This document shows positions 2,751 to 57,482 of a DNA stretch of 64,000 nucleotides, in pieces. The notes under the pieces were generated by a model. That model had not been told where the DNA came from. It saw nothing but the letters and a program-made list of their open reading frames with translations, and did not search any database. Both the position numbers and the translations under genes were made by a program. Where the stretch lies: NCBI GenBank assembly GCA_964349485.1, contig CAYGGE010000001.1, forward strand, positions 69,204 to 133,203. Reading direction: 5' to 3'. The stretch is from an uncultured Candidatus Saccharibacteria bacterium (GTDB lineage Bacteria; Patescibacteriota; UBA1384; CAYGGE01). Position 1 is the stretch's first letter; the number at the start of each line of letters is the position of its first letter.

Positions 2751-3224
2751 ATGCAGTATAAGGTACCGCAGCATATTGACGAGGAAGATAAGATCCTCGG
2801 TCCGTTGACGTTTATTGACTTTATCTACCTTTTAGTTGGCGGAGCGCTGATTCTGTTTTGCTTTGTCTTGTTCGATTTTGGTCTCTTTCTCTTCCTCGCT
2901 ATCCCGATCGCTCTCCTATCGGCCGCATTGGCGCTAATTAAAGTCCAAGATCAGCCCTTTAGTCGATTTCTGGTAACATTTCTGCTCTACTTACGTCAGC
3001 CAAAAAGACGGGTTTGGGCTGATCTTGAAGCCGAAGAGGATGAAACAGCCAGCCAGCTACTCGATATTGTTGCCGATCGTGAGGTCAAATTTGCGAGGAA
3101 GGCAGGTAATACAGCATCGGCAGCTACAGCCCCACCATCACCGACTGTTATTAAAACCGATGCCTCGCCGATTGTTTATCCTACCAAACCCGCTCGCAGG
3201 GTCCAAGTCACCTTAGCCTCGTAG
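2751..3224 (+). CDS. PrgI/VirB3-like small membrane protein of a type IV secretion system
   Basis: N-terminus (QYKVPQHIDEEDKILGPLTFIDFIYLLVGGALILF) followed by two hydrophobic helices resembles the PrgI/VirB3 family. It sits immediately upstream of the VirB4 ATPase. Confidence 0.55.
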   Translation: MQYKVPQHIDEEDKILGPLTFIDFIYLLVGGALILFCFVLFDFGLFLFLAIPIALLSAALALIKVQDQPFSRFLVTFLLYLRQPKRRVWADLEAEEDETASQLLDIVADREVKFARKAGNTASAATAPPSPTVIKTDASPIVYPTKPARRVQVTLAS

Positions 3225-3232
3225 GAAGTATC

Positions 3233-13974: not shown

Positions 13975-13986
13975 GAGTGTAAAGTT

Positions 13987-14058
13987 CTCTGGTTGTCTAA
14001 TTCGCTTCGCTATCTGGTTGTCTGGTTATGAACTAGAGAACTAGACGACCAGAAAAAC
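13987..14058. repeat. Copy A of a roughly 70-85 bp intergenic repeat element. Core is ..AACCAGAYAGCGAAGCGAA..GACAACYAGAGAAC when read toward the downstream gene. This copy is 13 bp upstream of the recF start.
   Basis: Aligned by eye to the copies at 32761..32832 and 46125..46210. It contains internal CTGGTT/AACCAGA half-site repeats. Confidence 0.7.
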
Positions 14059-14065
14059 CTCGCCT

Positions 14066-15175: not shown

Positions 15176-15405
15176 ATATACACCGTTCTATTTACTAATA
15201 ATATATTTACATAAGTAGTCGTAATAGTCTTAGGGCCTGTGGATCTGGGGATATTAACCTGTCGGGCATGGGGGTAAACGATCATTTTTCTTGGGATAGT
15301 TTGGGGACGAGGTGAGGATGAATCGGGGACAAGGTTTGGCTTTGGCGTGAACGCTGGGGATACTGCCGACTTATCCCTCCCCTATCAACAGCTAACGCCT
15401 CGTAG
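15176..15405. promoter_or_regulatory. dnaA-dnaN intergenic region with an AT-rich tract and several degenerate DnaA-box-like motifs. It may be a second origin module.
   Basis: TGTGGATCT (15238-15246), TGGGGATAT (15246-15254), TGGGGATAC (15355-15363) and TTATCCCTC (15372-15380), plus an AT-rich stretch at 15189-15230. Confidence 0.4.
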
Positions 15406-16854: not shown

Positions 16855-16924
16855 GACAACCTCCCGGAACCTATTGTTATTACCGACCAACCTTCGTAAA
16901 GTCGTAGCTCCAATAGTCACACAA

Positions 16925-17200
16925 TTATCCACAGTTTGTCAAATCGCTGTCTAAAGCGTCCCCTACCGCAATGAAAAGCACTTTTACAGGTTAAAAGGAG
17001 TTTATCCACGGTCTTACCCCCAGCTTATCCTCCATATACTTATTCTTTTCCACAATAATGTATGGGTTTTCAACAATAGTTATGACATTATCCACAGCAA
17101 CTTCGAAGTTGTCCTCCGTCATACTTAACTTTGCCCAAAGGCCTTGAACTATCGGGAGCTATAAGGTATACTAAGAGCCACTACAAAGTCTTTGAGGAAG
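16925..17200. promoter_or_regulatory. oriC: oriC between dnaA and rpmH, with DnaA boxes and an AT-rich unwinding region
   Basis: Perfect TTATCCACA at 16925-16933 and 17088-17096. TTATCCACG at 17002-17010, TTTTCCACA at 17046-17054 and TTATCCTCC at 17025-17033. AT-rich tract at 17031-17090. Confidence 0.8.
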
Positions 17201-32832: not shown

Positions 32833-32915
32833 TTTGCATTTCTTTTTCAGGTGTCGTATAGTTAATTTAACGGTGTATTTTTATTTACAGTGAGTTTGTT
32901 CTATAAGGAGGTTAT

Positions 32916-33401
32916 ATGGCTTGGTCTGATGTTCCTCGGAGTAAGAAAGTGCTCATTTTAGGCACCAGTGTCCTGGTTCTCTCGGTTGGGTTAGCAATAA
33001 TCGGAACCGGTGGTAGCAAGACGCCAAGTGCTGATAACTCGGCCAGCAATCCACTACTTGATAGCGGACTCGATCCTGATGCGATCAATGTTCTTATCGA
33101 AACGATAACTGACGATGACAAGGTAGCGTCGGCTTTTCTCGATGCCATTGCCGATAAGAACCTTAATTGTAAAATTGACCCAACGGAGAGCGATGGATAT
33201 GCTAGTCAGACCGAAGCAGATGGCACCGCAACTATGAGTCTACCAGCTGGTTCGTATGTCTTGCGTGGGACGGACATCAGCTCAAATGCCGAAGGAACTA
33301 CAGCGATCGCCGTAGGAGCAGTTTCCGGTGCAAGCTGTACGAAGCAAATCTCAGTCGCCAATACCGATCCGGTGATTATCCGACTGATATCGAGCCAGTA
33401 G
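32916..33401 (+). CDS. Signal-anchored secreted protein, unknown function
   Basis: ORF track. RBS AAGGAGG. N-terminal hydrophobic segment. Confidence 0.45.
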   Translation: MAWSDVPRSKKVLILGTSVLVLSVGLAIIGTGGSKTPSADNSASNPLLDSGLDPDAINVLIETITDDDKVASAFLDAIADKNLNCKIDPTESDGYASQTEADGTATMSLPAGSYVLRGTDISSNAEGTTAIAVGAVSGASCTKQISVANTDPVIIRLISSQ

Positions 33402-33416: not shown

Positions 33417-34394
33417 GTGTTTTTGCCTGTACTTAAGCGATGGGTATTGCTACTGGTCACGGCTATTTTGGCACTTAGCCAACCTGTATTTGTCGTTGCC
33501 CAAACGATCGATACTTATCAAGGCGATGCAACTATCGCGATAGGCAGAATTAACCAAGTTGAAGCTCAAGCGATAGAACGGATTCGTTTTTCGGTCCTGC
33601 ATCAACCGACGGTTGGTGGTGCATCTAGCTCTGTTACGACTATTCGTTCCGATGCGATTCGCCTAATTACTGAAATTGTCAATGAATATAAGGCGCAATA
33701 CGAACTAAACTCAGTGAGTCGCTCCACGATCGATCCGCGAAGGGAAGGCATCCGTATTGCTTCGAGCCAAGTTGAGTATGCAGGCCAACAGTCAGTCATA
33801 AAAATAGAGTCGTCGATTCGTACGGTTTCAATGCAGGCCAGACAAACCAACCATGCCCTGCCACAACCCAGTGTCCTCCCGTTTTATCGTTCAATTCTGC
33901 CAGCGGGCGCGGCGACCTCGGTATTTAGCCGATATCCAGAAAAAGCTCCAGCCCTGACTGAGTCCCTGGCCAAAACTGGTCATCGACCCTTTTTACCGCT
34001 TTCGCCCAACATTGGTGGGGTGCTCTATCGACTGCAGAACCCGCAGATTAAACAGTCCCAACCCGATTTTTGGACCGCCGCTGGCGTGGCAATTGGTGGT
34101 TATCTCGGTTTACGTACGCTATTTAATCAACCAGCCAAGATTCGAGTTTCTGCCTACTCGCCGTACGATAGCCTATCGTACACCATCGGCATCACTGGCG
34201 ATCGTGAGGCGCTAAAAGAGGTAGTCGTACCAACTAAAGGTCAGGCGCCCATTGTTCAAGAACTTCGAGCCGGTCAGTATCGGGTGGTCTATCGAGCGAG
34301 TGGCAGTAACCAACAGCTGATCCATCCGTTATTAGTTGGACCGGGCGAGATTTGGTGCTTACAAGTGCCTCAACCGCCAATTCGTTGTTATTGA
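33417..34394 (+). CDS. Secreted protein, unknown function
   Basis: ORF track. Signal peptide LLLVTAILALSQPVFVVAQ. RBS AGGAGGA. Confidence 0.45.
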   Translation: MFLPVLKRWVLLLVTAILALSQPVFVVAQTIDTYQGDATIAIGRINQVEAQAIERIRFSVLHQPTVGGASSSVTTIRSDAIRLITEIVNEYKAQYELNSVSRSTIDPRREGIRIASSQVEYAGQQSVIKIESSIRTVSMQARQTNHALPQPSVLPFYRSILPAGAATSVFSRYPEKAPALTESLAKTGHRPFLPLSPNIGGVLYRLQNPQIKQSQPDFWTAAGVAIGGYLGLRTLFNQPAKIRVSAYSPYDSLSYTIGITGDREALKEVVVPTKGQAPIVQELRAGQYRVVYRASGSNQQLIHPLLVGPGEIWCLQVPQPPIRCY

Positions 34395-34405: not shown

Positions 34406-36982
34406 ATGAATTTCATTCCAAAACTGCTGACTAGAATTGCCACCCTACTCATAGCCGTGACTTTGGCTTTCCCCGCTGCGGCCACTGCTCAGTTCGTGGC
34501 GAAAGGCGAAGTAGCCTCTTTGGGCAATACGGCGCAACAACAGGATCTGCAACGGGTGCTCGATACTCTAGCGAAGAAAAATGATACGGCCCGAAAGAAA
34601 GTTCTGGTAGTATTGAGCCAGCTCGACAGTAAAAGTATCGGCGCAAGTAACACTAAGCGCCAAGTCGAAGGAACGGTTGGCCTCTTAAAGTCTGAGTTCA
34701 ACAAGGTGTTGGCTGACTACGCCAGACAGACACCACCAACTACGTCTCTGCGGGAAGCATACCGGGTTGCTCAGACCTATCTTAACGATATCCGTAGCTT
34801 AACGGACGTTGCAGTAACGACAAGCGAGATCGATAAAAAGCTCGACCCCTCGGCGCCGACTGGTAAGTACCTGGAGCATCAGAAGAACATACAGGTTCTA
34901 GTCACAAAAGCCCTCACCAAAGCCGATGCCCGACTGGCTGATCGGGGCAAGAAAGAGACGGTTCGACGTGACCTTGAGCAGATTGTAGCGGACACCCAGC
35001 GTCACATTAATTCTAGCACGGCAAGCTACATGTTAGAGAATGCTGAACTATTGGAATCGGCGCTCAAGAGAGTTAACACTAAAGTGCTCGAGGGATTTTC
35101 GACCGAGATGGAAGCTCGGTTCAAAACCGCCAACAGCCGTAGCGCTGACAAAGAGAACGATTTGAATGCCGAAGAAGAGGAGATATTTCAAATAGTTAAA
35201 AAAGAGATGAGCGATGTGATTGATCGTTCAATCAGCACGATCGATTCATTGGTCAAACAAGTACTTACTGCCAACTTACCAACGTCCAGCCAGGAGCCTG
35301 GTGTTAATCCGCTCCTTGAAGCGAAGTTTAAAACCCAGAAACAATTGGCCGATATCCTCAAGACCTCGCTAGACCGAGTCAGAAAAATTAATGCCAGGGC
35401 TAATCAGAACAATGAATACTCATCCTTGCTGAAGGAGGTGATCGACCGGGAGGCGACTCGCCAAAAACAAAGACTGCAGGATACCTACGCCGAATATGAG
35501 GGAAATTTTATAGCCGGTGATCCGACTCGACAACAGTATACCAAGCGCAAAAATGCGGCCCAAGACAAGGCAGAAGGTTGTACTAGTTTCTTGTGCGACA
35601 TTGGCCGTGTAATTTCAGGCGCTGGTTCAGCGTTTATTAGCGGCGCCACTGGTGGCCTAGTCAATATCCCCCCGCAAACGTTTAGTAGCGGACTGTTCGG
35701 TATTCAAAATCCGACCTATGCCGCTTCGCCGTACTCGTCGAGTTATTTCAACGGTGTCCCAAGTCTGCCAAATGTTAACGGACGTTATCTTGCTCCTGGT
35801 GCATACGGCAACCAGTCGATCATTTCTGATCCACGCTGTTTTGTGCTTGGTGAGCCTCATCGGCAATTTGTACTTATCGACTCGGTTAAAGCACAACAAA
35901 TTGGCGATCATGATTTTATCGAGGCAACATCCATACCTTCACGGGTTATCCCTGCTCCAAATCCAACAGCAGTGGTTACTGCTGTCCCCCGCTCCGACAC
36001 CAGGAACCAGAGCTTTGTCGATCAGATTCGTCAGACCATCCAGCGTGGTGCAGGCTTCCAACTCGGTGGATTCGGGATCGGCACACCGCCGTTTAACCCA
36101 AATACTAGTCTGCTTGCCTGTCCACCCGGGACACCGGGCTACTATCGCGCCGCCGGTGGAGTTCTATCGACCGGTCTAGGCAATGTCTTTGGTGGCCTAC
36201 CAGTCGGTCAATCGATCTTCGGTAGCGGTACAACCAATGACCAATTACGTCTGACTTTGAATCAAGCAAATATGACCAGTCAACTGTCTTCCGGATTTCG
36301 TATCTTGGCCGGTATTACCAAGCAAGACGGATATCGGGAAGTAGCCGATAGCTTTGGTAGCGGTGACATGACAACCGAAAAGCTGATCAGCATTACCACT
36401 AAACTTCGCGAACTGAGTTTCTACAAATTAGCCAACAATGGCGGAGATTCAATCATCAACCTCTTCTTAAACCTATGTTCGTATACGATTAGCGGCGATC
36501 AGAATATGAGAACCTTTTGTCAAGGGATTATTACGGTTAATAATATAACGGAGCCTCAATCACAGTCCGCTGTGCTTGCCCCAATCTGGTCGAGTCAGGT
36601 AGCCCATAGCTTACCACTTAGCGTTAGTCCTGAATCTCCACAACTGGTTGAAACGTCAAGGGCATTGATCCCGAGCCGTATCAATGTCGGCACGATTGTT
36701 GTGGGGGTTGATACGGTTGCTGGGGCTCAAGCCTATATCGTATCTGTCTTGAGGCAAGGTAGTAGTAATGCTTCGCCAGATATCAATAGTGTTGCAATCA
36801 GCAAGGGTGAAAAACGAACAGCAACGGTACAACCAGGAACATATAAGCTCTATTACCGTGATATCTTAGAGCCTGATTTAAGAAAGACGACTTTAGTCGC
36901 GAATATTGTAATTAAATCTGGTACGTGTCAGCTTGTTATGATCAATGGGAACAAGAACGAACAAGCCTCATCCTGCAAATAA
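34406..36982 (+). CDS. Giant secreted paralog 1 (about 858 aa). Conserved N-terminal helical half ending in the EGCTSFLCDIGRV...ISGATGGLVNIPPQTF motif, then a divergent C-terminal region.
   Basis: ORF track 34352..36982. RBS GAGAGAGGG before ATG at 34406. Signal peptide. Near-identity to the next ORF over about 420 aa. Confidence 0.55.
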   Translation: MNFIPKLLTRIATLLIAVTLAFPAAATAQFVAKGEVASLGNTAQQQDLQRVLDTLAKKNDTARKKVLVVLSQLDSKSIGASNTKRQVEGTVGLLKSEFNKVLADYARQTPPTTSLREAYRVAQTYLNDIRSLTDVAVTTSEIDKKLDPSAPTGKYLEHQKNIQVLVTKALTKADARLADRGKKETVRRDLEQIVADTQRHINSSTASYMLENAELLESALKRVNTKVLEGFSTEMEARFKTANSRSADKENDLNAEEEEIFQIVKKEMSDVIDRSISTIDSLVKQVLTANLPTSSQEPGVNPLLEAKFKTQKQLADILKTSLDRVRKINARANQNNEYSSLLKEVIDREATRQKQRLQDTYAEYEGNFIAGDPTRQQYTKRKNAAQDKAEGCTSFLCDIGRVISGAGSAFISGATGGLVNIPPQTFSSGLFGIQNPTYAASPYSSSYFNGVPSLPNVNGRYLAPGAYGNQSIISDPRCFVLGEPHRQFVLIDSVKAQQIGDHDFIEATSIPSRVIPAPNPTAVVTAVPRSDTRNQSFVDQIRQTIQRGAGFQLGGFGIGTPPFNPNTSLLACPPGTPGYYRAAGGVLSTGLGNVFGGLPVGQSIFGSGTTNDQLRLTLNQANMTSQLSSGFRILAGITKQDGYREVADSFGSGDMTTEKLISITTKLRELSFYKLANNGGDSIINLFLNLCSYTISGDQNMRTFCQGIITVNNITEPQSQSAVLAPIWSSQVAHSLPLSVSPESPQLVETSRALIPSRINVGTIVVGVDTVAGAQAYIVSVLRQGSSNASPDINSVAISKGEKRTATVQPGTYKLYYRDILEPDLRKTTLVANIVIKSGTCQLVMINGNKNEQASSCK

Positions 36983-36992
36983 ACTGAGCCAT

Positions 36993-39368
36993 ATGAATAA
37001 AAACACCATAGCATTTACGATATTTGTTCTAGTTTTATGGTTACTACCGACGACAGCTGCAGCCCAATTTGTACCTATAGGGGAAGTGGCTTCTTTGGGG
37101 ACGGTGGCGCAGCAGGGGGAATTGCAGCAGGTGCTCGATGCTTTGGCAAGGAAGAGTGATACGACTCGAAAAAAAGCAATCATTACCCTTGGCCAACTTG
37201 AAGATAAGAGTATTGGAGCCTCTAACGCTCGTCGGCAGATTGAGGGCGAAGTTGGCAGTCTTAAGGTAGCATTTAACAAAATTCTGGCTGACTACTCAAG
37301 GCAAACCCCGCAGACTGCCTCCCTTCGTGAAGCCTATCAGGTAGCTCAGACCTACCTAAACGATATACGAGCCATGACTGACGATGCGGCTAGTCAAGCT
37401 ACCCTCGAAAAGAAACTTGATCCTTCGGCACCGACGGGCAAATATTTAGCTCATCAGAAGAAAGTACAATCCCATACTACAGCGGCTGTCGCTAAGGCTG
37501 ATGCCCGATTAACGGAGCGGGGTAAAAAGGTTACTGTTTTGCGTGATTTAGAACAAATAGTTCAGGATACTCAACGTCAAATAAATCTAGCGACAGCGAG
37601 CTATTTACTCGAAAATGCCGATGTCTTAGAGTCTGTTTTGCAACGGATCAATACCAAGGCTCTTGAAGACCTTTCGGCCGCTATGGAGAGCCGTTTCAAG
37701 GAAGCAAGTACGCGCAGTTCTGATCAAGAAAACGATCTCAATACTGAGGAAGATGGCATCTTCCAGGGAGTCAAGCAAGAGCTGAGTGACACTGTCGATC
37801 GCGCAATTAGCACTTTCGACTTGCTAGTCAAGCAAGTCCTCTCTGCAAATCTACCCAGTGCGAGTCAAGAACCGGGTGTAAACCCGCTCCTTGAAGCGAA
37901 GTTCAAAACACAGAAGCAGATGGCAGATATTCTCCAAACTTCGCTTGATCGGATCAATAAAATTAACGGCCGCACTGGCCAAAATGCTGATTATTCCGCT
38001 CTACTTAAGGAAGTCATCGCCAAGGAAACTACCAGACAGAAGCAACGCCTGACTGATACCCATAAAGAGTATGAAGGTAATTTTATAGCCGGTGACCCAA
38101 CTAGACAGCAATACACCAAGCGAAAAAGAGCTGCCCAAGAGAAGGCAGAAGGTTGTACTAGTTTCTTGTGCGATATCGGTCGCGTAGTCTCAGGAGTCGG
38201 CTCGGCATTCATTAGTGGAGCTACTGGCGGTTTAGTCAATATCCCCCCGCAAACGTTTAGTGGCGGTCTATTCGGTATCCAAGACCCGACCTATGCCGCT
38301 TCGCCCTACTCCTCAAGTTACCTTAATGGTGCTCCCAGTTTACCGTTCGTGAACGGACAGTACACCACCATGGGTGCATATGGTGGGCAAAATATCTCAA
38401 TTAATCCCCAGTGCATCATGTTTCGCGGCCAAGATAGTCAACTGTCTTTTCTGGGCGTAGCACAGGCGCAGGGCGGAGCAGAGGAATCACAGTCTAGCGG
38501 TGATCAAGGTCAGGCTCGTGGTACCGGAAGTAGCTCAGTTGATACTGAGAGGAGCACCACCAGGACTAACCAAAACCGAGGCTTCTTCGGTGAGCTATTT
38601 GGTGGTAATCTCGGCAGGGCCTTCGGCGGCTTTAGCCAAACACTCCGTAACGGCGCCTGCGGTACCTATCAAAACCAATATAGTATGGGGACAAATTCAT
38701 ACTATGGTGGTCTCCCTGTCATGCAAGCCATGGGCTTACCAGCCAATGCACAACTCAATTTGCCTCAAAACTATGTACCGGTCTTGAGCCAGCTCTTTCA
38801 GTCGCTTGGCCAACGCGATCCGCGATTGGCGCAACTTCTCCCGATCTTCGACGACGGCCAGCTCACCGGCAACGAAAGTGCCCAGCTCCAACCGTATCTT
38901 CAACAGATTGGCTTTTTCTCGAGTGCTACCAATAGTCCCTTCTGGCAAGATCCAATACGCGGCCTAGTTCTTGGTGCCTGTCACCAAGCATTCCAGCAGT
39001 CTAATCAACTGGCACTACAGATCTGCAAACAACAGTTTACTGGCGACCGATTGCTCAATACGACCGGTCGAACCAACAGTGTACCCTCTACTGTGAGTGG
39101 TGCCAACGACCAAAGCGCATTAACAAAGGTGCAAGCGATCGTGACGAACCGAATCCAAACTTTGTCTGCCGCTGGTCCCTTCCAGTGTCAATCCGCAACC
39201 AATATTGTTCAAGATGTTGATGCAATCCGTTTTGCATATCGAACGGTTCAGAGCGAGACTGTTAAATCGCAGGTAACTAATCTCTGGCATGGCATGCTCA
39301 GGCAATTCGAAGTCACTTGTCCCAATGTCAGCGTCATTCAACTTTATAGTCCCGGCTACTCACAATGA
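36993..39368 (+). CDS. Giant secreted paralog 2 (about 792 aa). It has the same conserved N-terminal half, and its C-terminus carries a Gly/Ser/Gln-rich low-complexity segment.
   Basis: ORF track 36945..39368. ATG at 36993 comes after the paralog-1 stop at 36982. Signal peptide MNKNTIAFTIFVLVLWLLPTTAAA. Confidence 0.55.
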   Translation: MNKNTIAFTIFVLVLWLLPTTAAAQFVPIGEVASLGTVAQQGELQQVLDALARKSDTTRKKAIITLGQLEDKSIGASNARRQIEGEVGSLKVAFNKILADYSRQTPQTASLREAYQVAQTYLNDIRAMTDDAASQATLEKKLDPSAPTGKYLAHQKKVQSHTTAAVAKADARLTERGKKVTVLRDLEQIVQDTQRQINLATASYLLENADVLESVLQRINTKALEDLSAAMESRFKEASTRSSDQENDLNTEEDGIFQGVKQELSDTVDRAISTFDLLVKQVLSANLPSASQEPGVNPLLEAKFKTQKQMADILQTSLDRINKINGRTGQNADYSALLKEVIAKETTRQKQRLTDTHKEYEGNFIAGDPTRQQYTKRKRAAQEKAEGCTSFLCDIGRVVSGVGSAFISGATGGLVNIPPQTFSGGLFGIQDPTYAASPYSSSYLNGAPSLPFVNGQYTTMGAYGGQNISINPQCIMFRGQDSQLSFLGVAQAQGGAEESQSSGDQGQARGTGSSSVDTERSTTRTNQNRGFFGELFGGNLGRAFGGFSQTLRNGACGTYQNQYSMGTNSYYGGLPVMQAMGLPANAQLNLPQNYVPVLSQLFQSLGQRDPRLAQLLPIFDDGQLTGNESAQLQPYLQQIGFFSSATNSPFWQDPIRGLVLGACHQAFQQSNQLALQICKQQFTGDRLLNTTGRTNSVPSTVSGANDQSALTKVQAIVTNRIQTLSAAGPFQCQSATNIVQDVDAIRFAYRTVQSETVKSQVTNLWHGMLRQFEVTCPNVSVIQLYSPGYSQ

Positions 39369-39384
39369 ATCTATAGTTGCCAAT

Positions 39385-39420
39385 CAAACAAAAAGAGGTC
39401 GATCGACCTCTTTTTGTTTG
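39385..39420. terminator. Perfect 36-bp palindrome CAAACAAAAAGAGGTCGATCGACCTCTTTTTGTTTG, a bidirectional terminator between convergent genes
   Basis: Read directly. It is flanked on both sides by A/T runs. Confidence 0.8.
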
Positions 39421-39433
39421 ATAATACAGACTG

Positions 39434-39871
39434 TTAGAAACCGTTCGAGTTAAACCCGGCGCCGAAGCCGTTACCACCTACTTGTTGGGCTTGCTCCTGA
39501 ACGAAGCCGCCAACCCAGATAATGATTGAGTAGGAAAGGATTATAACCACAATCCCGATAATCGCGTTGTAAATGGCTGTTCGGGCTTTTTTCGCCTTTT
39601 CTTCATCGGTGCTGGCTGTGATGTACTGAATACCGGCCCAGACTAGGTAAAGGATGGCGATAATTGCAGCCAGGAGAATCACTAAGTTAAAGAGGTTCAA
39701 GAAAAAGCTCACAATGTTGAAATTGCCACTAGGTTGAACCGGGAATAAAATTTGCTTCAGTCGATCAAGGTTAATGGCCTGGGGAGCGCCGCCGAATTGA
39801 GCGAAGGTCACGGTAGGGAGCGTGAGGGTAGTCAGAGCGACTCCGGCACGCAACAGGAACTTATTCATCAT
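39434..39871 (-). CDS. VirB2/TrbC-like T4SS pilin-domain protein (signal peptide, then hydrophobic helix, charged loop DEEKAKKAR, second hydrophobic helix)
   Basis: Topology read from the sequence. The charged loop flanked by two long hydrophobic segments is shared with the next three genes. Confidence 0.55.
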   Translation of the reverse strand: MMNKFLLRAGVALTTLTLPTVTFAQFGGAPQAINLDRLKQILFPVQPSGNFNIVSFFLNLFNLVILLAAIIAILYLVWAGIQYITASTDEEKAKKARTAIYNAIIGIVVIILSYSIIIWVGGFVQEQAQQVGGNGFGAGFNSNGF

Positions 39872-39940
39872 TCCTCCTTAAAGGATGTAGGACATAGGTT
39901 TTCTTAAGTATACAATACCTACACAATACTACAAGTAGGG

Positions 39941-40459
39941 CTATTTTTGGATGTCACGAACCGCTGGCAGTTGTTGAAGTGGGGCGTTCAAGTCCGTGTT
40001 GACTGGTTCATTATCCGCTTGGGGAGGAACGACCTTGAACATGTCCAGTCGCTCTTGGCAACGGTCGATGTTCTGACCTTGTGCATTACGAATCACGAAC
40101 AAACCATTAAACTTTCCAGTATTATCGAAGATTTGATACTGAACCCCGAGGAAACCTCGCACAAACATGACGAAGAAGAACAAAGAGATAAGAACCATGA
40201 GCAAGCCGATAACTCCATTACGTAAACCTTCGCGTGACTTCTTGATCGACTCTTCGTCGCCAAAGCTCCGCAGTAATCCGAAACTGTTGGCGCGTATAAC
40301 CGTCATTAGCGCCATGATACCAAACCATAACAAGCCAATGAATAGCAAGTTAAAGAGGATCGGTAAACCCTGTTGAATTGGACAGGCCCAGAGGGCAGGC
40401 TCGCCGAAGTTGGCGAGGTAGCGAGAAATGTTATCGTAAATAATCGTGCTATCAGTCAT
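39941..40459 (-). CDS. VirB2/TrbC-like pilin-domain paralog (loop GDEESIKKSRE)
   Basis: Same helix-loop-helix pilin-like arrangement. Confidence 0.5.
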   Translation of the reverse strand: MTDSTIIYDNISRYLANFGEPALWACPIQQGLPILFNLLFIGLLWFGIMALMTVIRANSFGLLRSFGDEESIKKSREGLRNGVIGLLMVLISLFFFVMFVRGFLGVQYQIFDNTGKFNGLFVIRNAQGQNIDRCQERLDMFKVVPPQADNEPVNTDLNAPLQQLPAVRDIQK

Positions 40460-41208
40460 TAGCCACCACCAGCAATGAGATAACGAATGAGCAGCGAAAA
40501 CTGATCGGAGACAAAGTAACCTAAGATCAAAATAATGATTACACTGACGGTGGCAATCAAGTAGTTCCTGGCTCGCTTGACCTTCTCTTCATCGTCCCGA
40601 GCCATGATGTACATTATCCCACTAAAAACGATGGCGAAGAGGATGAACATCGGCCAGAAGACTTGATCGAGAAAATTTAACATTACACGAACGAAGTTTT
40701 GGCGTAAGGTCGGTAGCTCTGCTCGGACGGCATTGTAACCCAGATCGGGGTCAAAGAGTTCTTTGGTTGGTTCGATTGCCACATTGATGTCTGTCTGACT
40801 GGCGATGATTTGTTCAACTTGGCCCTTACTAAAGTTTTTTACGATGGTTGCCGCATTGATTACTACCTTTTTTGGTGACTCGTCGGTTGGTACGGTAGCC
40901 AGGGCAATCGTTATGCTCTTGATCTGTGGGCCAGGGGCGGGAGTGATAGGGATGGCATTGGTTTTCACGACGCGGTTATCGGCAATCACCGCAAACGCGA
41001 CGCCGTACTTGTTGGTATCGCCAGGGATCGGTAGTAGGGTGACGGTGTAGGTTAGGGTGAGATCGTCGCCGTTAACTACTGCTTTGTTAATTTCGATTGA
41101 AGGGGAAGCGGCGGCTTCGACCGATGTGACGACGAAAAAGCTAGCGACAATTATGAGCCCAATCGCTTGATAAATTAGTCGAAAATATTTTTGTATTAAA
41201 GTAATCAT
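40459..41208 (-). CDS. Pilin-domain paralog with an N-terminal extracellular domain (C-terminus MYIMARDDEEKVKRARNYLIATVSVIIILILGYFV)
   Basis: C-terminal helix-loop-helix pilin-like domain. 1-nt and 4-nt overlaps with neighbours suggest translational coupling. Confidence 0.5.
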   Translation of the reverse strand: MITLIQKYFRLIYQAIGLIIVASFFVVTSVEAAASPSIEINKAVVNGDDLTLTYTVTLLPIPGDTNKYGVAFAVIADNRVVKTNAIPITPAPGPQIKSITIALATVPTDESPKKVVINAATIVKNFSKGQVEQIIASQTDINVAIEPTKELFDPDLGYNAVRAELPTLRQNFVRVMLNFLDQVFWPMFILFAIVFSGIMYIMARDDEEKVKRARNYLIATVSVIIILILGYFVSDQFSLLIRYLIAGGG

Positions 41209-42452
41209 CTGTTCACTCGTTGAAAGAGGTTTTCTAAGAAAGTATTGGGAACTTCTTGACTGCCGACCGTATTGGTAACATTGGTCGCGTAGTCAGTATA
41301 CTTATCTTCGCTCGTAAAGCCGATCGGTTCAAGAGCTAGGAAGTTAGCCAGGACTCTAGCGAACATGAGGAGCATGATCCCGATTATCGCTCCACCCATA
41401 ATCTCGCGCGATTTCTTCAGCTCTTCTGGGTCTGCGGAGTCCCACATAAGCTTACTGCCCGCGTAGATAGTCATGAGTACAGCCAAGATGATGCCGATCG
41501 GCAGGGCAAAGCTGACAATATTGGATGCATATTCGCCGATGTTGCTGACTAAGCCAAATTCAGTTGGTGCGACCACGGTGTCAATGTGGCGGGTGGTGCC
41601 ACTCGTCACTGTTCCATCAGTGAGGGTAGCCGAGACGGTATACTCTGTAGCCAGATCACCTTTCGATTTGACATCAGCAAGGTGATAGATGTGGTATTTG
41701 GCCTCGGTGAGGGACAAACTGGTGCGATCGTTTGGATCATTGATTTCTAGAGGTATAGCGTCGGGAGTAGAGGGCTGAATTGTGTATTTGGTTACGTTAT
41801 CGACTGCCTTCCAGACAAGGTCGGCTTTGTAAGTGTCATTTACTTTGGTGATACGGAGCGTTGGATTGATCTCCGGCTTTATTAGACCTTGGCTTGTCCG
41901 ACCGATGGCTGTCGCTGTCTTCGCCCCTTCTTTGAGGGCAGCTGTGTCGGCCGGTTTTGCTGTAGGGATGGCAGTCGATGCGGGCGGTGCTTTTATGCCT
42001 GCGCCAAGAATCTGTTCGCCTGTTCCGTTTAATGAGGTGGTAGAGACAATTTCATTCCCGCCCTTTACCAATTCAAGTGTTCCCTTTGCCGACTTAGCTT
42101 TCTTGATCGTCAAGTCATTGGCCAGGGCGAGAGTATAAAATCCATTAGTCACGGTCTGGGTCAACTGTTCTTCTTTACTACCTAGAGTAGTGTAGACCAG
42201 GTTATTACTATCTGTTGTCGCCATACTAAAACGGAGCTGATAACTATCGGCATAGGATTTGGCTTGAGCAGAATATTGAAAGCGAATCGTCTTTAGACCG
42301 TCATAGGTTACACTATGGAGCGTTACTTTGTCCGAAGTGGTCGGTGCTGCCATGGCCGCTTCACTACTCAATAAGACGAGCCGGCTAGTAAACAAAAAGG
42401 CTATGACAATGAGCCATCGATATTTAAAAAGTTGGTTCAAAACATAGCTCAT
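41205..42452 (-). CDS. Pilin-domain paralog with a large N-terminal extracellular domain (C-terminus AGSKLMWDSADPEELKKSREIMGGAIIGIMLLMF)
   Basis: Same C-terminal module. The 415 aa protein has a signal-anchor at its N-terminus. Confidence 0.5.
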   Translation of the reverse strand: MSYVLNQLFKYRWLIVIAFLFTSRLVLLSSEAAMAAPTTSDKVTLHSVTYDGLKTIRFQYSAQAKSYADSYQLRFSMATTDSNNLVYTTLGSKEEQLTQTVTNGFYTLALANDLTIKKAKSAKGTLELVKGGNEIVSTTSLNGTGEQILGAGIKAPPASTAIPTAKPADTAALKEGAKTATAIGRTSQGLIKPEINPTLRITKVNDTYKADLVWKAVDNVTKYTIQPSTPDAIPLEINDPNDRTSLSLTEAKYHIYHLADVKSKGDLATEYTVSATLTDGTVTSGTTRHIDTVVAPTEFGLVSNIGEYASNIVSFALPIGIILAVLMTIYAGSKLMWDSADPEELKKSREIMGGAIIGIMLLMFARVLANFLALEPIGFTSEDKYTDYATNVTNTVGSQEVPNTFLENLFQRVNR

Positions 42453-43819
42453 CGCAAAATCCCAGTTATGGCTGTCGCCGCTTGGGTTAAGATAGTCGCG
42501 ACTGGTTGACCATCTTCAGTTGCCCCCTTAATGAGTTGACTGAATATCTGATCGACAATTCGAGGCGATGGCCCCTTGTACCAATTTGTCGTGTTGGGGT
42601 TGATGATGGCGGTTATGGTTTCGTCCTGCGATTCTTCGGCAACACTGGCATTGGCGTAAATCTGGGGCGGAATCTGTGAAGTCTGCTTCGCATAGACACT
42701 AGTGATATCGATATTGCTGGTTGAGTATTGGATAAACTGCCAGGCGATCTGTTCTCGCTTGGCTCGCTGTTCTTTGGTGAGCCTCGAAGCTGACTTACTA
42801 ACCACGAGGCTTCGGTATTTGGCTAACTGGACCTCTTTACTTACTTCCGCTGGTGTATCGCCTACCGGGATTTTCTTCAGACCACGCTGAGGCACGCCGG
42901 AAACAGAGTAGTTGAGCTTGCTATTCAAGAGCTTCATCTGCGGGTAAAGCGACAGATAGTTAATCATCATCGACAAATTACCGCTAGCAAAAGCCTGGGT
43001 CGAATAAGGTTGGTTCGCGTCCCAACTTTGGTAAGCTGATGCGGGGTCGGCAAAGCTATCAAAGAAGGTGACGGCTTCTTGACCGAGGTAACGATATTCG
43101 CCACTGTCCGGATCTTGGATGAATAGATCAAAAGTGGCTTGTTTGTGGGCGGGATCAACCATCTGAACACCGAGTTGCATCATGACGAGCTGTAATATAT
43201 GGCTAGCCCGATCGAGATTGCTTGCCGTACCCATGGCGAAACCTGGTCGAACAATCGTTTGGTCGACTCGGAGTGTCGTTAGCTTAGCGATAGCGGCTAA
43301 TTCCTCCCAAGTTTTGGGGGGTTTCTCGATCCCTGCCTGTTTCATGTGATCAACATTCATAAATAGCACGAGCGGGTCGATAGTGATCGGCATGCCATAG
43401 AGGGTGTCGTCGATAATCATCTGATTGGCGATTGCTCTTGCGTAAGTCTTTTTGAAGATCTCCTGCTCGCCTTTACTTGGAAAGACAAAACCGGCCAGTT
43501 TATCTTTATGACGAGCTAGCTCATCGTCTCGAATTTCCCAGATGTCTGGTCCCTTACCGGCCGCTAAGGCGTTAATTACTGCGGTTTCATAGTCATCGGT
43601 CGGCTCAAAGAGACGCGTCTCGATGTTAATAGTCGGTACATCTTTTTCGTAAGTTGCAATGAGCTTATCGAAAACCTTATCGTCGCCTGACTGCTTGACG
43701 TGCCAATAAGTTAAGGTTTGTTTGGCCTGATTAACAGCCTGTTGATCATTACGTAAACCACAGCCAGTCAAAAAGAGTGGTGTAATGGCGAGGAGAGCGA
43801 GGGATGTGAACTTATTCAT
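42449..43819 (-). CDS. Extracellular solute-binding lipoprotein (ABC-transporter SBP family 1-like), orphan
   Basis: Lipobox LTGCG. SBP_bac_1-like features (TLTYWHV..., GPDIWEIRDDELARHKDKLAGFVFP). There is no permease or ATPase nearby. Confidence 0.55.
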   Translation of the reverse strand: MNKFTSLALLAITPLFLTGCGLRNDQQAVNQAKQTLTYWHVKQSGDDKVFDKLIATYEKDVPTINIETRLFEPTDDYETAVINALAAGKGPDIWEIRDDELARHKDKLAGFVFPSKGEQEIFKKTYARAIANQMIIDDTLYGMPITIDPLVLFMNVDHMKQAGIEKPPKTWEELAAIAKLTTLRVDQTIVRPGFAMGTASNLDRASHILQLVMMQLGVQMVDPAHKQATFDLFIQDPDSGEYRYLGQEAVTFFDSFADPASAYQSWDANQPYSTQAFASGNLSMMINYLSLYPQMKLLNSKLNYSVSGVPQRGLKKIPVGDTPAEVSKEVQLAKYRSLVVSKSASRLTKEQRAKREQIAWQFIQYSTSNIDITSVYAKQTSQIPPQIYANASVAEESQDETITAIINPNTTNWYKGPSPRIVDQIFSQLIKGATEDGQPVATILTQAATAITGILR

Positions 43820-45182
43820 AGGCCTCCCCTCGTAGGATGTGGGTACTTTGCTTAGTTAGGCGGTCGATCACAACTGATAATGGCTCGCCAGAAAGTGTCG
43901 CATCGATAGCTTGGTGGAAGACGGTTTTACTGGCCTTGATGTCGTTACGATACCAGAGGCTAGCCACCGCGGGCGTTCCTTTGGGGGTGTCAATCTGGGC
44001 CAAAAATGGAGCGAGGAAGGGACTAAAACTCGAGCTTTGCAGGAGATCACGACGAGCCGGTGGTCGACCAGAGGCTAGGGCATAGCGCAGGTTATTGTCT
44101 TTATTGGTTAAGAACTGGATGAAATTCCAAGCCTCGACCGGGTGTTTACTGACTGATGGCACGCCGACAACTAAGGGCGAAGCAAGGGTGATGGGGTCAC
44201 TCGTGTCGCGAATTTGCGGCATGATACCAGTCGCCAGCGGGAAAGTCGGATTAGTTTCGGTGATATCGCGAATTCGGTAACTGTAGTCAATGAGGAGCGG
44301 CAGCTTTCCAGCCATAAACAATTCAAAATCTTGTGATTGATCCTTTGTCCAAGCATAGTTTTCCTTACTTGGAGAGGCAAAGCTGGTATAGAAATCGAGA
44401 GCGGCTAATCCTGGCTGAAAGGCCTCGCCCGTCGCTTTCGAAATGGTTTCATTGTAACGTGCTTCTGTTTTCTGGCTGTCGGTCATGGGGGTATGGTTTT
44501 GCAGAAGTAAGGTCGCCAAAATCTCATCGGCACGACTGACGTTGGTGCTCGAACCAATGGCTAGGCCAGGCTTGGTGAGATTCACCCCATTGCGCTCGCG
44601 TAGTTTATTGGAAGCGGCGATCGTATCGTCCCATGTTTGGGGCAAGCGGGGAATCGACTTTTGTTGTAGTAGGCTAGTGTTGGCAAACAAGCCCAAAGTA
44701 TCAGCGGCGATCGGAAGAGTATATACTGCACCTTTTACGATATTTTCTGTTTGGGTGACCGTAGTATAGCGTTCGTTGAAGAGCGTCACATTGGGTGAGG
44801 GCTTAATTTTTTTGGCGAATAACCGTTTTTTTGTGGGCACAGCGTCTTGGCTAGCCAACAGTCCCTCGGGGACTATAGCGAGTTTATCGTGATGCTTGGG
44901 TAACCAATCTTGAGGAATGAGCCAAATGTCGGGTCCGTCTTGGCTAGCTAAGAGGTTTAGTGAGGCGAACTCGTAAAGTGAGGCCTCTTTTTGGGTGTAA
45001 TTGACGGTGACTCCCGGGTGAGTGGCTTCATAGCTATCGATAATCGGCTGGAAGAGTGAGACATCATCGTAAACGCCCCAAAAATTTAAGGCTACTGGTC
45101 TAGCATCGTCAGTTGTTAGTGGCGTTGACTGCTTCGGGACGTCAATAAATTGCCAAACCAAATAAATACCTGAAAGGACCAT
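43812..45182 (-). CDS. Extracellular solute-binding protein paralog (SBP family 1-like), orphan
   Basis: LNFWGVYDD, GPDIWLIPQDWLPKHHDKL. Overlaps the next gene by 8 nt. Confidence 0.5.
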   Translation of the reverse strand: MVLSGIYLVWQFIDVPKQSTPLTTDDARPVALNFWGVYDDVSLFQPIIDSYEATHPGVTVNYTQKEASLYEFASLNLLASQDGPDIWLIPQDWLPKHHDKLAIVPEGLLASQDAVPTKKRLFAKKIKPSPNVTLFNERYTTVTQTENIVKGAVYTLPIAADTLGLFANTSLLQQKSIPRLPQTWDDTIAASNKLRERNGVNLTKPGLAIGSSTNVSRADEILATLLLQNHTPMTDSQKTEARYNETISKATGEAFQPGLAALDFYTSFASPSKENYAWTKDQSQDFELFMAGKLPLLIDYSYRIRDITETNPTFPLATGIMPQIRDTSDPITLASPLVVGVPSVSKHPVEAWNFIQFLTNKDNNLRYALASGRPPARRDLLQSSSFSPFLAPFLAQIDTPKGTPAVASLWYRNDIKASKTVFHQAIDATLSGEPLSVVIDRLTKQSTHILRGEAYE

Positions 45183-57368: not shown

Positions 57369-57482
57369 GATAGTTTCCGTTTATTTCGATAAGGGGTTAG
57401 TATAGCACTCGATACACATTTTGTCACCCCCATATTTATAGTATAGTTATCATATCTATAGAATATTTTGGCAAGGAGATGC

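What the first reader, a model, noticed from the sequence alone, without database searches (positions are those of the whole stretch)
34406..39368. Tandem giant secreted paralogs with a conserved N-terminal half and divergent C-terminal domains, convergent on the pilin locus
The two proteins (about 858 and about 792 aa) have near-identical signal peptides. Their first roughly 420 residues are highly similar (AQFV..GEVASLG..QQ..LQ.VLD.LA.K.DT.RKK ... EGCTSFLCDIGRV.SG.GSAFISGATGGLVNIPPQTFS.GLFGIQ.PTYAASPYSSSY). After that point they diverge completely, and paralog 2 carries a Gly/Ser/Gln-rich low-complexity stretch. A constant N-terminal module joined to variable C-termini is the architecture of polymorphic surface or effector proteins, such as adhesins, toxins or host-recognition factors. 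They end 50 bp from the pilin operon terminator.
Basis: seen in the sequence. Interest (0 to 1): 0.7.

Follow-up and report, generated by a model that had tools for sequence, protein, structure and literature searches.

The report
Mosaic tandem secreted rod proteins, Berkelbacteria
Two neighbouring genes of an uncultured, ultra-small (Berkelbacteria-like) bacterium encode exported rod-shaped proteins of an unannotated, very rare family; their front halves have been kept alike by gene-to-gene copying, while their back halves belong to two old, distinct but related types, which suggests a shared docking part with two alternative "heads" rather than a toxin system.

Summary
Genes A (34406-36982, 858 aa) and B (36993-39368, 791 aa) are 73% identical over residues ~25-470 and ~22% identical after that, with a sharp switch.

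Three details need correction:
- The signal peptides share only the cleavage motif.
- The C-halves are divergent homologues, not unrelated cassettes.
- The neighbouring "pilins" are VirB2-like T4SS_pilin genes.

The family is tiny: 23 representatives among 1.84 billion proteins. It has no Pfam, NCBIfam, PHROG, PADLOC or PDB sequence match. Most relatives carry one copy, always in the order small membrane-anchored ORF, then the big gene, then a convergent array of VirB2-like genes (four where the contig covers it).

C-cores fall into two ancient types. A is type I and B is type II, and each has an ortholog in a Berkelbacteria MAG. The N-halves instead cluster by genome and are 100% identical over 1.3 kb in that MAG. 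The conserved-then-variable pattern is therefore a gene-conversion mosaic combined with stronger constraint on the N-half.

AlphaFold models show a Sec signal, a rod of three three-helix bundles, a hairpin with a CxxxxC motif and a glycine zipper, a disordered linker, a small disulfide-bonded helical domain and a variable tail. I found no toxin domain, no immunity gene and no extra cassettes.

The most likely reading is a surface, host-contact fibril with a common dock and two heads. That function is inferred, not shown. Interest is moderate.

The parts
32916..33401 (+). Small ORF (161 aa) with an N-terminal membrane anchor and a ~110-aa extracytoplasmic domain. It is the first gene of the four-gene unit and the candidate anchor or partner.
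   Evidence: A homologous 143-166-aa ORF lies directly upstream of the big gene in 6 aligned loci (alignment). ORFs of 157-162 aa occupy the same position in L008, L009 and L011 but were not aligned. It has a strong AAGGAGG ribosome-binding site, and a promoter-like site lies at 32833-32862.
33417..34394 (+). 325-aa exported protein, present only in this lineage. Its C-terminal tail weakly resembles the terminal beta tail of the big proteins.
   Evidence: An ortholog with 61% identity sits at the same position in the Berkelbacteria MAG. It is absent from the single-copy loci. hhalign matches tail to tail at E = 7e-4 but probability only 26%. No Pfam hit.
34406..36982 (+). Paralog A, 858 aa (= P0001), carrying a type I C-core and a terminal tail.
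34502..35515 (+). A residues 33-370: nine long helices forming three consecutive three-helix bundles (a rod). This is the conserved, homogenised module.
35528..35701 (+). A residues 375-432: the most conserved segment of the family. It holds a CxxxxC pair followed by a small-xxx-small (glycine-zipper-like) moderately hydrophobic helix hairpin.
   Evidence: A and B are 87-93% identical here. Family-wide near-invariant residues cluster at 363-400. Kyte-Doolittle 19-residue hydrophobicity is ~1.0. pLDDT is only 55-64.
35780..35830 (+). Mosaic junction in A (residues ~459-475), where high identity to B ends.
   Evidence: The 100%-identical tract in the related MAG ends at the equivalent residue (~463 of P0002).
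35738..36181 (+). A residues 445-592: predicted disordered G/P/S/Y-rich linker. It contains the conserved Cys478 and the ...KAxAQ motif.
   Evidence: pLDDT below 50. Composition; motif.
36188..36541 (+). A residues 595-712: small helical C-core domain with a conserved Cys691/Cys705 pair, type I.
   Evidence: pLDDT 64-90. Type I HMM scores 76.9 bits against 61.0 for type II. It clusters with P0002 at 100% bootstrap.
36542..36979 (+). A residues 713-858: variable distal tail. It is probably a beta-rich terminal domain with a PGxYK motif and a C...C pair.
   Evidence: It matches the C-terminal end of the profile built from distant relatives (positions 429-483). AlphaFold confidence is low.
36993..39368 (+). 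Paralog B, 791 aa (= P0004), carrying a type II C-core. It lacks the terminal beta tail.
37077..38084 (+). B residues 29-364: the same three-bundle rod.
   Evidence: AlphaFold pLDDT is mostly 85-97. Foldseek's best hit is beta2-spectrin repeats 14-16, E = 0.025.
38358..38408 (+). Mosaic junction in B (residues ~456-472).
38718..39035 (+). B residues 576-681: helical C-core domain (Cys663/Cys678), type II, with the PFWQDP motif.
   Evidence: Type II HMM scores 91.9 bits against 37.6 for type I. It clusters with P0003 at 100% bootstrap. pLDDT 61-89.
39102..39317 (+). B residues 704-775: a C-terminal bundle of three helices (Cys732/Cys776) in place of A's beta tail.
   Evidence: AlphaFold, pLDDT 50-69. 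Similar short helical tails occur in P0003, P0012 and P0013.
39383..39422 (.). Perfect 40-nt palindrome flanked by A and T runs. It is a bidirectional intrinsic terminator shared by the A/B unit and the convergent VirB2-like operon.
39434..42452 (-). Convergent array of four VirB2-like (PF18895 T4SS_pilin) genes of 145, 172, 249 and 415 aa. They are co-oriented with, and their ends overlap, two solute-binding-protein genes (42449-45182).
   Evidence: Pfam hits (E = 3e-11 and 3e-8 above threshold; 0.019 and 0.0026 below). The same convergent array lies directly downstream in every locus whose contig extends past the big gene: four genes in L002, L003, L004 and L006, and partly recovered before the contig ends in L001 and L008.

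Best explanation
**Shown**
- A and B are tandem members of a very small, unannotated protein family. The only named source is a Candidatus Berkelbacteria MAG (candidate phyla radiation).
- Each has a Sec signal peptide with a conserved AxA|QF cleavage motif, and paired cysteines in every module. Neither has a membrane anchor, lipobox or sortase signal.
- The predicted build, in order:
  - a rod of three three-helix bundles (about 340 residues);
  - a highly conserved hairpin with a CxxxxC motif and a glycine zipper;
  - a disordered linker of about 150 residues;
  - a small disulfide-bonded helical C-core;
  - a variable tail.
- The conserved-N, divergent-C pattern is a recombination mosaic. 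The C-cores belong to two ancient types (A is type I, B is type II) that have orthologs in the related MAG. The N-halves cluster by genome. In that MAG they are identical over a 1.3-kb tract whose ends coincide with the similarity boundaries seen here.
- In the window itself the exchange is old. Synonymous sites are saturated. N-half dN between A and B is 0.19, equal to the between-genome value. C-core dN is ~1.0, against 0.32-0.38 for orthologs.

**Inferred**
- After Sec export the proteins stay at the cell surface as extended fibrils.
- The homogenised rod and hairpin are the common dock or assembly module. This module must fit one shared partner: either the conserved small membrane-anchored protein encoded immediately upstream, or the convergently encoded VirB2-like proteins.
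- The linker gives reach. The two C-terminal heads contact different ligands, most likely on the host cell on which such bacteria are thought to live.
- Gene conversion keeps both isoforms compatible with the shared partner. Sequence divergence beyond the junction stops the conversion tract and so preserves two head types.
For: - **Sharp boundary:**
- **C-halves are homologous:** the profile from distant C-halves scores A at 142 bits and B at 126 bits.
- **Discordant trees:** in the N-half tree the four proteins are monophyletic at 100%, A2+B2 at 100% and A+B at 66%. In the C-core tree A+A2 and B+B2 are each at 100% and are not sisters.
- **Two types:** type I versus type II HMM scores are 76.9/61.0 for A and 37.6/91.9 for B, and leave-one-out scoring of 11 single-copy members is clean.
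- **Conversion tract:** a 1315-nt tract with 0 mismatches in L001 runs from the end of the signal peptide to residue ~463.
- **Substitution rates:** dN/dS table.
- **Rarity and lack of annotation:** 8 hits among 5.8 billion proteins; 23 among 1.84 billion representatives, all of the same architecture or fragments of it.
- **Structure:**. Both models give the same rod at pLDDT ~90, and the best fold matches are three tandem spectrin repeats or generic three-helix bundles.
- **Extracellular features:** four cysteine pairs per protein, and no strongly hydrophobic segment apart from the signal peptide.
- **Conserved gene order:** small ORF, big gene, then the convergent VirB2-like array in every locus whose contig extends that far. 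L009 and L011 show only the small ORF and the big gene before the contig ends.
- **Operon signals:** gaps of 10-15 nt between the four genes, a promoter-like site with a strong ribosome-binding site before the small ORF, and a terminator after B.
- **Context from a cultivated CPR bacterium:** epibiotic growth needs a T4SS, its VirB2-like pilin array and several adhesins (PMC10633639; PMC12857230).
Against: - No experiment or homology ties the family to adhesion. Every fold match is generic and not significant (Foldseek E >= 0.025).
- No anchoring motif was found, so surface retention is assumed.
- The conserved gene order also covers housekeeping genes (solute-binding proteins, NTP_transferase, HSP20, phosphoribosyltransferase). 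Adjacency to the VirB2-like array may therefore reflect general synteny in a narrow lineage, and the orientation is convergent rather than co-transcribed.
- The 100% identity in L001 comes from a 6x-coverage short-read contig, where near-identical repeats can be collapsed to one consensus.
- The A+B grouping in the N-half tree has only 66% support.
- AlphaFold confidence is low for the hairpin, the linker and A's tail.
Confidence: 0.45

Rival explanations
1. Envelope or S-layer-like structural protein. A and B would be abundant self-assembling coat or scaffold components. The conserved N-half would be the anchoring or lattice-forming module and the C-half the outward-facing variable surface. 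This resembles Campylobacter fetus Sap or Clostridioides difficile SlpA-type families (comparison from general knowledge).
For: - The proteins are Sec-exported, large, lineage-restricted and unannotated.
- A strong bidirectional terminator follows directly after B.
- The conserved N-half with a recombination mosaic is like S-layer paralog families.
- A conserved internal ...KAxAQ motif just after the junction could be a processing site that splits the two halves.
Against: - There is no SLH, CWB2 or other known anchoring domain.
- Eight cysteines and a ~150-residue disordered linker are unusual for lattice-forming S-layer proteins.
- Expression level is unknown.
Confidence: 0.2
2. Accessory or tip component of the VirB2-like (T4SS_pilin) filament. 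This would be a functional analogue of VirB5-type minor pilins, assembling physically on the structure built by the convergent four-gene array and the T4SS encoded 22-30 kb upstream.
For: - The convergent array is invariably adjacent wherever the contig reaches it.
- A PrgI/VirB3-like gene (2751-3221) and a VirB4-like ATPase (3859-5670) lie in the same window next to dnaA.
- A signal peptide followed by three-helix bundles is also the general build of VirB5/TraC (from general knowledge).
Against: - There is no VirB5 Pfam match.
- The proteins are four times larger than VirB5.
- They are convergent with the array, not co-transcribed.
- VirB2-like arrays occur across the candidate phyla radiation (1,948 assemblies), whereas this family has only 23 representatives. 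It cannot be a general component.
- Synteny also covers unrelated housekeeping genes.
Confidence: 0.15
3. Membrane-active protein. The conserved glycine-zipper hairpin at the end of the helical rod would oligomerise and insert into a target (host) membrane, forming a pore or conduit. A and B would be alternative or cooperating components, as in tandemly encoded alpha-pore-forming toxins.
For: - The small-xxx-small hydrophobic helix is the most conserved element of the family.
- The genes are tandem paralogs with signal peptides.
- ClyA, NheA and SmhA appear far down the fold-match lists.
Against: - The rod is made of consecutive three-helix bundles, not the long five-helix ClyA-type bundle.
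- Hairpin hydrophobicity is modest (Kyte-Doolittle ~1.0) and its pLDDT is low.
- Most genomes carry a single copy.
Confidence: 0.1
4. One reading: a polymorphic toxin or effector locus, with a constant delivery module and exchangeable C-terminal toxin cassettes.
For: There is a sharp junction between conserved N and divergent C, and recombination occurs at that junction.
Against: - No toxin or known trafficking domain was found.
- There is no immunity-like ORF after either gene.
- There are no orphan cassettes in the window.
- The C-halves are mutually homologous.
- Only two types exist, each conserved as an ortholog and as a single-copy gene in other lineages.
Confidence: 0.05

Closest known systems
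Surface-protein paralog families with a recombining conserved module and variable exposed module (for example Campylobacter fetus sapA homologs, or phage and tailocin receptor-binding fibres with a conserved N-terminal dock); comparison from general knowledge
   Same: - A conserved N-terminal part and a divergent C-terminal part meet at a sharp junction.
- The conserved part is homogenised among paralogs by recombination.
- The variable part falls into discrete types.
   Different: - There is no sequence or fold relationship to any of these families.
- Only two head types are seen, and they are homologous to each other.
- There is no silent-cassette arsenal or invertible promoter in the window.
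- In the window the last exchange is ancient.
Essential adhesins and the VirB2-like pilin array with a monoderm-type T4SS of cultivated Saccharibacteria (Wang et al. 2023, PMC10633639; Quinonero-Coronel et al. 2025, 10.1101/2025.01.22.634366)
   Same: - The setting is the same: an array of divergent PF18895 proteins, a PrgI/VirB4 T4SS next to dnaA, and large Sec-exported proteins of unknown fold in a host-dependent bacterium with a reduced genome.
   Different: - The A/B family was not detected outside a narrow group of relatives; the only named source is a Berkelbacteria MAG.
- Here the array is about 22-30 kb from the T4SS genes rather than inside the cluster.
- No functional data exist for this organism.
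Spectrin-repeat rods (PF00435) and other tandem three-helix-bundle stalks
   Same: The predicted topology of residues 33-370 is three consecutive antiparallel three-helix bundles. The best Foldseek matches for both models are beta2-spectrin repeats 14-16, aligned over ~360 columns.
   Different: - Matches are not significant (E = 0.025-0.04; TM-score 0.22-0.24 relative to the target).
- There is no Pfam spectrin hit.
- The three bundles show no detectable sequence repeat.
- The protein is extracellular and bacterial.
Polymorphic toxin systems (CdiA-CT, Rhs, LXG and similar)
   Same: A constant N-terminal region with a sharp switch to a different C-terminal region, arranged in tandem.
   Different: There is no toxin domain, no immunity gene and no orphan cassettes. 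The C-termini are homologous and conserved across genomes.

Membership tests
Polymorphic toxin systems | C-terminal domain belongs to a recognisable toxin fold or family (nuclease, deaminase, pore-former, etc.) | tested here: not met
   No Pfam, NCBIfam, PADLOC, PHROG or PDB-sequence match for either protein or for the 22-member alignment. The predicted C-cores are small helical domains.
Polymorphic toxin systems | Cognate immunity gene immediately downstream of each toxin gene | tested here: not met
   The gap between A and B is 10 nt. B is followed after 14 nt by the terminator palindrome and then by the convergent gene.
Polymorphic toxin systems | C-termini are unrelated to each other and vary between close strains; orphan cassettes lie nearby | tested here: not met
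   The C-halves are homologous and orthologous types recur. tblastn finds no further copies in the window. Strain-level variation could not be tested, because the only other contig is 100% identical.
VirB5/TraC-type minor pilins of T4SS | Sequence membership in the VirB5 family, size of about 220 aa, and location inside the T4SS operon | tested here: not met
   No such Pfam hit at E <= 0.1. The proteins are 858 and 791 aa. They lie ~29 kb from the VirB4-like gene and are convergent with the VirB2-like array.
T4SS_pilin (PF18895) / TrbC-VirB2 | Match to PF18895 or PF04956, with two C-terminal hydrophobic helices | tested here: not met
   A and B have no hit and no hydrophobic helix pair. Of the four neighbouring genes, two match above threshold and two below.
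Spectrin repeat (PF00435) | Profile match, or a significant structural match to the ~106-residue three-helix repeat | tested here: inconclusive
ClyA / Hbl-Nhe-Smh alpha-pore-forming toxins | Elongated five-helix bundle with a hydrophobic head, and a significant fold or profile match | tested here: not met
S-layer proteins with known anchors | SLH, CWB2 or another known cell-wall-binding domain | tested here: not met
   No such Pfam hit in any of the 22 family members.
S-layer proteins with known anchors | Forms a two-dimensional lattice and is among the most abundant proteins | not testable with these tools
   This needs microscopy or proteomics of the organism.
Sortase-anchored Gram-positive fibrillar adhesins | C-terminal LPXTG-type sorting signal followed by a hydrophobic tail, plus known stalk or adhesive Pfam domains | tested here: not met
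   A ends ...NEQASSCK and B ends ...SPGYSQ. Neither has a hydrophobic C-terminal segment, and no stalk or adhesin domains were found.

The most novel reading that the evidence does not exclude
The family is a new kind of contact device of candidate-phyla-radiation bacteria. In this reading a Sec-exported rod has a disulfide-clamped glycine-zipper hairpin that oligomerises and inserts into the host envelope. It would work together with the adjacent VirB2-like proteins, which are encoded in one co-oriented gene run with two solute-binding proteins, to form a nutrient-uptake conduit. The two recombining head types (I and II) would set host range.
Probability: 0.1. Interest if true: 0.8.

Novelty: new variant of a known kind. 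Interest (0 to 1): 0.4.

Why it matters
How ultra-small candidate-phyla-radiation bacteria attach to and feed on their hosts is largely unknown. In the one genetically tractable species, adhesins and a T4SS with VirB2-like pilins are essential.

This locus offers three things:
- It defines an unannotated, lineage-restricted family of exported rod proteins that is always encoded next to such a pilin array.
- It shows that the family comes in two ancient head types.
- It gives a clear case of segmental concerted evolution, with the N-half homogenised and the C-half kept distinct. That pattern predicts a shared binding partner for the N-half.

These are concrete, testable targets: the N-half with the upstream small protein or the VirB2-like proteins, and the heads with host ligands. 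The work by itself does not establish any function.

Tried and rejected
- **Known domains.** Pfam, NCBIfam, PHROGs and PADLOC on A, B and the two upstream ORFs, and Pfam on all 22 family members, gave nothing meaningful. The sub-threshold Sigma70_r4, Nsp1_C and OCRE hits are noise.
- **PDB by sequence.** A profile search found nothing.
- **Fold searches.** Only generic helical bundles came up. The afdb50 library was not available.
- **Internal repeats.** The three bundles are not detectable sequence repeats of each other (hhalign probability <= 1%).
- **Upstream ORFs as paralog fragments.** BLASTP of the 325-aa and 161-aa ORFs against A shows no similarity. Only a weak tail-to-tail hhalign signal exists for the 325-aa ORF.
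- **Extra cassettes.** tblastn finds none in the window.
- **A stand-alone C-half gene (P0023).** This was rejected. The ORF continues upstream to the edge of a 1.3-kb contig, so it is a fragment.
- **Phage origin.** No relatives in viral contigs and no PHROG hit.
- **More loci or strain variants.** Two scans of JGI metagenome contigs found nothing. One alignment was too diverse to scan with. The only other contig from the same organism is 100% identical.
- **Recent gene conversion inside the window.** Not seen. dS is saturated everywhere except a hint at residues 390-465, where dS is 1.8 and codon sharing among identical residues is 0.56 against ~0.33 between genomes.
- **Non-coding RNA.** Rfam finds none in the region.
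Full report
**1. Checking the observation**

The ORF scan shows two adjacent plus-strand ORFs. With the ATG starts used by public gene calls:
- A is 34406-36982 (858 aa, identical to database protein P0001).
- B is 36993-39368 (791 aa, P0004).

BLASTP of A against B gives 697 bits. A MAFFT alignment scored in 30-column windows shows 60-93% identity from about residue 29 to about 475, then an abrupt fall to 10-37%.

| Region | Protein identity | DNA identity |
|---|---|---|
| N-half | 73% | 67% |
| C-half | 22% | 42% |

Three details are wrong or overstated:
- The signal peptides share only the cleavage region P..A.AQF (30% identity over the first 30 columns).
- The conserved part runs to about residue 470, not 420.
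- The C-halves are not unrelated (section 3).

B residues 476-600 are indeed G/Q/S-rich. B's stop is followed after 14 nt by a perfect 40-nt palindrome (39383-39422) with flanking A and T runs. The convergent gene ends at 39434.

**2. Genomic setting**

*The four-gene unit.* A and B are the last two genes of a tightly packed unit with gaps of 15, 11 and 10 nt:
- a 161-aa ORF with an N-terminal membrane anchor (32916-33401), preceded by a strong AAGGAGG site and a promoter-like match;
- a 325-aa exported ORF (33417-34394);
- A;
- B.

*The convergent operon.* It encodes four PF18895 T4SS_pilin (VirB2-like) proteins of 145-415 aa. Two match above the Pfam threshold and two below. They are preceded, with overlapping stop and start codons, by two solute-binding proteins.

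*The rest of the window.* Near its start the window carries a PrgI/VirB3-like gene (2751-3221) and a VirB4-like ATPase (3859-5670), next to recF, dnaN and dnaA at 12.8-16.9 kb. This is the arrangement described for Patescibacteria T4SSs (10.1101/2025.01.22.634366). The closest relative found in a named genome is an "uncultured Candidatus Berkelbacteria" MAG.

**3. The family and its history**

*Size.* The family is extremely small:
- 8 hits among 5.8 billion proteins;
- 23 hits among 1.84 billion cluster representatives, using a full HMMER profile search.

All hits have the same architecture or are fragments of it. Neither half was found attached to anything else.

*Gene order.*
- In 6 loci aligned here, a homologous 143-166-aa ORF lies directly upstream of the big gene.
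- ORFs of 157-162 aa occupy the same slot in L008, L009 and L011, but I did not align them.
- Wherever the contig extends past the big gene, the convergent VirB2-like array follows. It has four genes in L002, L003, L004 and L006, and is cut off by the contig end in L001 and L008.
- In the loci that reach further (the window, L002, L003, L004, L006), two solute-binding proteins and an NTP-transferase come next.

*Copy number.* Only the window and the Berkelbacteria MAG contig (L001 = L007) have a tandem pair, plus the 325-aa gene. Every other locus that extends past the big gene has a single copy. L009 and L011 end at the gene, so their copy number is unknown.

*The C-halves are homologous.* A profile built only from the C-halves of distant single-copy members recognises both:
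- A's C-half at 142 bits, E = 1e-45;
- B's C-half at 126 bits, E = 1e-40.

*The C-cores fall into two types.* These are the small helical domains around A residues 575-712.
- Type I has the motif ...LFxNLC. Members: A, P0002, P0005, P0007, P0008, P0010, P0011.
- Type II has the motif PFWQxP...C. Members: B, P0003, P0006, P0009, P0012, P0013, P0014, P0017.

| Protein | Type I HMM (bits) | Type II HMM (bits) |
|---|---|---|
| A | 76.9 | 61.0 |
| B | 37.6 | 91.9 |

Leave-one-out scoring of 11 single-copy members separates the two types cleanly.

*The trees disagree (neighbour-joining).*
- In the C-core tree, A pairs with P0002 and B pairs with P0003, each at 100% bootstrap. The two pairs are not sisters.
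- In the N-half tree, all four proteins form one clade at 100%. P0002+P0003 group at 100% and A+B at 66%.

*DNA evidence for conversion.* The two genes of the MAG are identical over about 1315 nt, from the end of the signal-peptide core to residue ~463, and unrelated-looking outside that tract. Both ends coincide with the similarity boundaries in the window pair.

*Substitution rates.*

| Comparison | N-half dN | C-core dN |
|---|---|---|
| A vs B | 0.19 | ~1.0 |
| Orthologs between genomes | 0.19-0.20 | 0.32-0.38 |

Synonymous sites are saturated in the window pair. The one exception is residues 390-465, where dS is 1.8.

*Conclusion for this section.* The conserved-then-divergent pattern has two causes:
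- segmental gene conversion (concerted evolution) of the N-half between paralogs that carry two anciently diverged C-types;
- roughly two-fold stronger purifying selection on the N-half.

*Caveats.* The MAG contig has about 6x short-read coverage, so near-identical repeats may have been collapsed to one consensus. "100%" should be read as "very similar". I could not decide whether the second type arose by ancient duplication with differential loss or by lateral acquisition. All four N-halves score higher on the type II N-half profile and sit next to type II P0014 in the tree, which hints that A's N-half was overwritten by a type II resident.

**4. What the proteins look like**

AlphaFold2 was run with the 22-23-sequence family alignment (mean pLDDT 64 and 69). 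Both paralogs give the same picture:
- **Signal peptide.**
- **Rod.** Nine long helices, predicted with pLDDT ~90, are arranged as three consecutive three-helix bundles (A residues 33-370).
- **Hairpin (375-432).** A helix hairpin holds the CxxxxC pair and a small-xxx-small, moderately hydrophobic helix. This is the most conserved stretch of the family, but its pLDDT is only about 45-64.
- **Linker.** About 150 residues are predicted disordered.
- **C-core.** A confident small helical domain carries a conserved cysteine pair (A 600-712, B 576-681).
- **Tail.** A's tail is beta-rich, with a PGxYK motif and a C...C pair, and is modelled with low confidence. B's is a three-helix bundle with pLDDT 50-69.

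Across the family the distal tail is modular. It has zero to several helical C...C units, with or without the terminal beta domain. From reading the sequence, one member (P0014) ends in a cupredoxin-like motif; no Pfam hit supports this.

Each protein has four cysteine pairs and no strongly hydrophobic segment other than the signal peptide. There is no lipobox and no sorting signal.

Fold searches returned only generic matches:
- Foldseek's best hits for both models are triple spectrin repeats, E = 0.025-0.04, not significant.
- ClyA, NheA and SmhA appear only as noise.

No sequence library gave a hit.

**5. Interpretation**

*Shown:* an exported, disulfide-bonded, elongated modular protein pair with a recombination mosaic.

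*Inferred:*
- The homogenised rod and hairpin are a module that both isoforms must keep compatible with one shared partner or with each other.
- The obvious candidates are the small membrane-anchored protein found directly upstream in every locus examined, and the VirB2-like proteins.
- The linker and C-terminal heads are the distal, ligand-specific part.

This matches the logic of surface fibrils, receptor-binding fibres and S-layer paralog families. It also fits the finding that epibiotic growth of a cultivated CPR bacterium needs a T4SS, its pilin array and several adhesins (PMC10633639; PMC12857230).

I rate this reading at about 0.45. The rivals are:
- an S-layer-like coat protein (0.2);
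- a physical accessory of the VirB2-like filament (0.15);
- a membrane-inserting glycine-zipper protein (0.1);
- a polymorphic toxin (0.05).

The toxin reading fails each of its defining tests that could be run here: toxin domain, immunity gene, unrelated cassettes and orphan copies.

The adjacency argument is weakened in two ways. Synteny in these loci also covers housekeeping genes. And the family is far rarer than VirB2-like arrays, which occur in 1,948 CPR assemblies.

**6. Novelty and score**

The principle, a conserved docking module homogenised by recombination plus discrete variable heads, is well known. The protein family carrying it here is unannotated, has no detectable relatives and occurs in a poorly known lineage. 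I therefore classify it as a new variant of a known kind.

Interest is moderate (0.4). The evolutionary pattern is clean and yields testable predictions, but the function is inferred only from architecture and context.

Noticed in passing
window 2751-5670 and 12856-16932: A monoderm-type T4SS core lies next to recF, dnaN and dnaA. It comprises a PrgI/VirB3-like gene at 2751-3221 and a VirB4-like ATPase at 3859-5670, with several large unannotated ORFs up to 12576, including a 947-aa one. Cumulative GC skew is lowest at ~12-20 kb, so the window probably spans the replication origin. This matches the T4SS-near-dnaA arrangement reported for Patescibacteria.
   Followed up: partly
window 39434-45182 (- strand): The four VirB2-like (PF18895) genes appear to be co-transcribed with two solute-binding-protein genes, since their stop and start codons overlap. 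No permease or ATPase lies beside them. The same order of two solute-binding genes followed by four VirB2-like genes recurs in distant relatives (L002, L003, L004, L006). The pairing is unexplained.
   Followed up: partly
window 35870-35900 (A residues ~489-498); B residues ~485-493: A conserved internal motif (hydrophobic stretch followed by KAxAQ, with a near-invariant Ala) lies 20-30 residues after the mosaic junction. It resembles the family's own signal-peptide cleavage motif AxA|QF. It could be a processing site that separates the two halves, but it has no preceding membrane-spanning stretch.
   Followed up: partly
window 33417-34394: This 325-aa exported ORF is found only in the two genomes that have the tandem pair. 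It contains a GxxxG-like hydrophobic stretch (WTAAGVAIGGYLGL). Its C-terminal tail (GQYRVVYR...IWCLQVPQPPIRC) looks like the terminal beta tail of the big proteins, the domain that paralog B lacks. The hhalign signal is weak (E = 7e-4, probability 26%).
   Followed up: partly
L001 10074-11388 versus 13382-14696 (approximate): A tract of about 1315 nt is 100% identical between the two tandem genes of the Berkelbacteria MAG contig (6x coverage). It reflects either very recent gene conversion or collapse of near-identical repeats during assembly.
   Followed up: yes
L011 8001-10658 (P0014): One family member lacks the CxxxxC pair. From reading the sequence, it ends in a cupredoxin/plastocyanin-like motif (...YYCEVHGAGMSGLIYVL) instead of the usual tail. 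No Pfam hit supports this; the scan of all 22 members found none.
   Followed up: no
window 39383-39422: A perfect 40-nt palindrome (ATCAAACAAAAAGAGGTCGA / TCGACCTCTTTTTGTTTGAT) acts as a bidirectional terminator. The consensus terminator scan missed it because the hairpin has no loop.
   Followed up: yes
window 57468-59909 and 55096-57081: Two further large envelope proteins lie in the window. One is an 814-aa protein with CarboxypepD_reg and Big_7 domains. The other is a 662-aa VanW/PG_binding_4/G5 protein. Neither is related to A or B.
   Followed up: no
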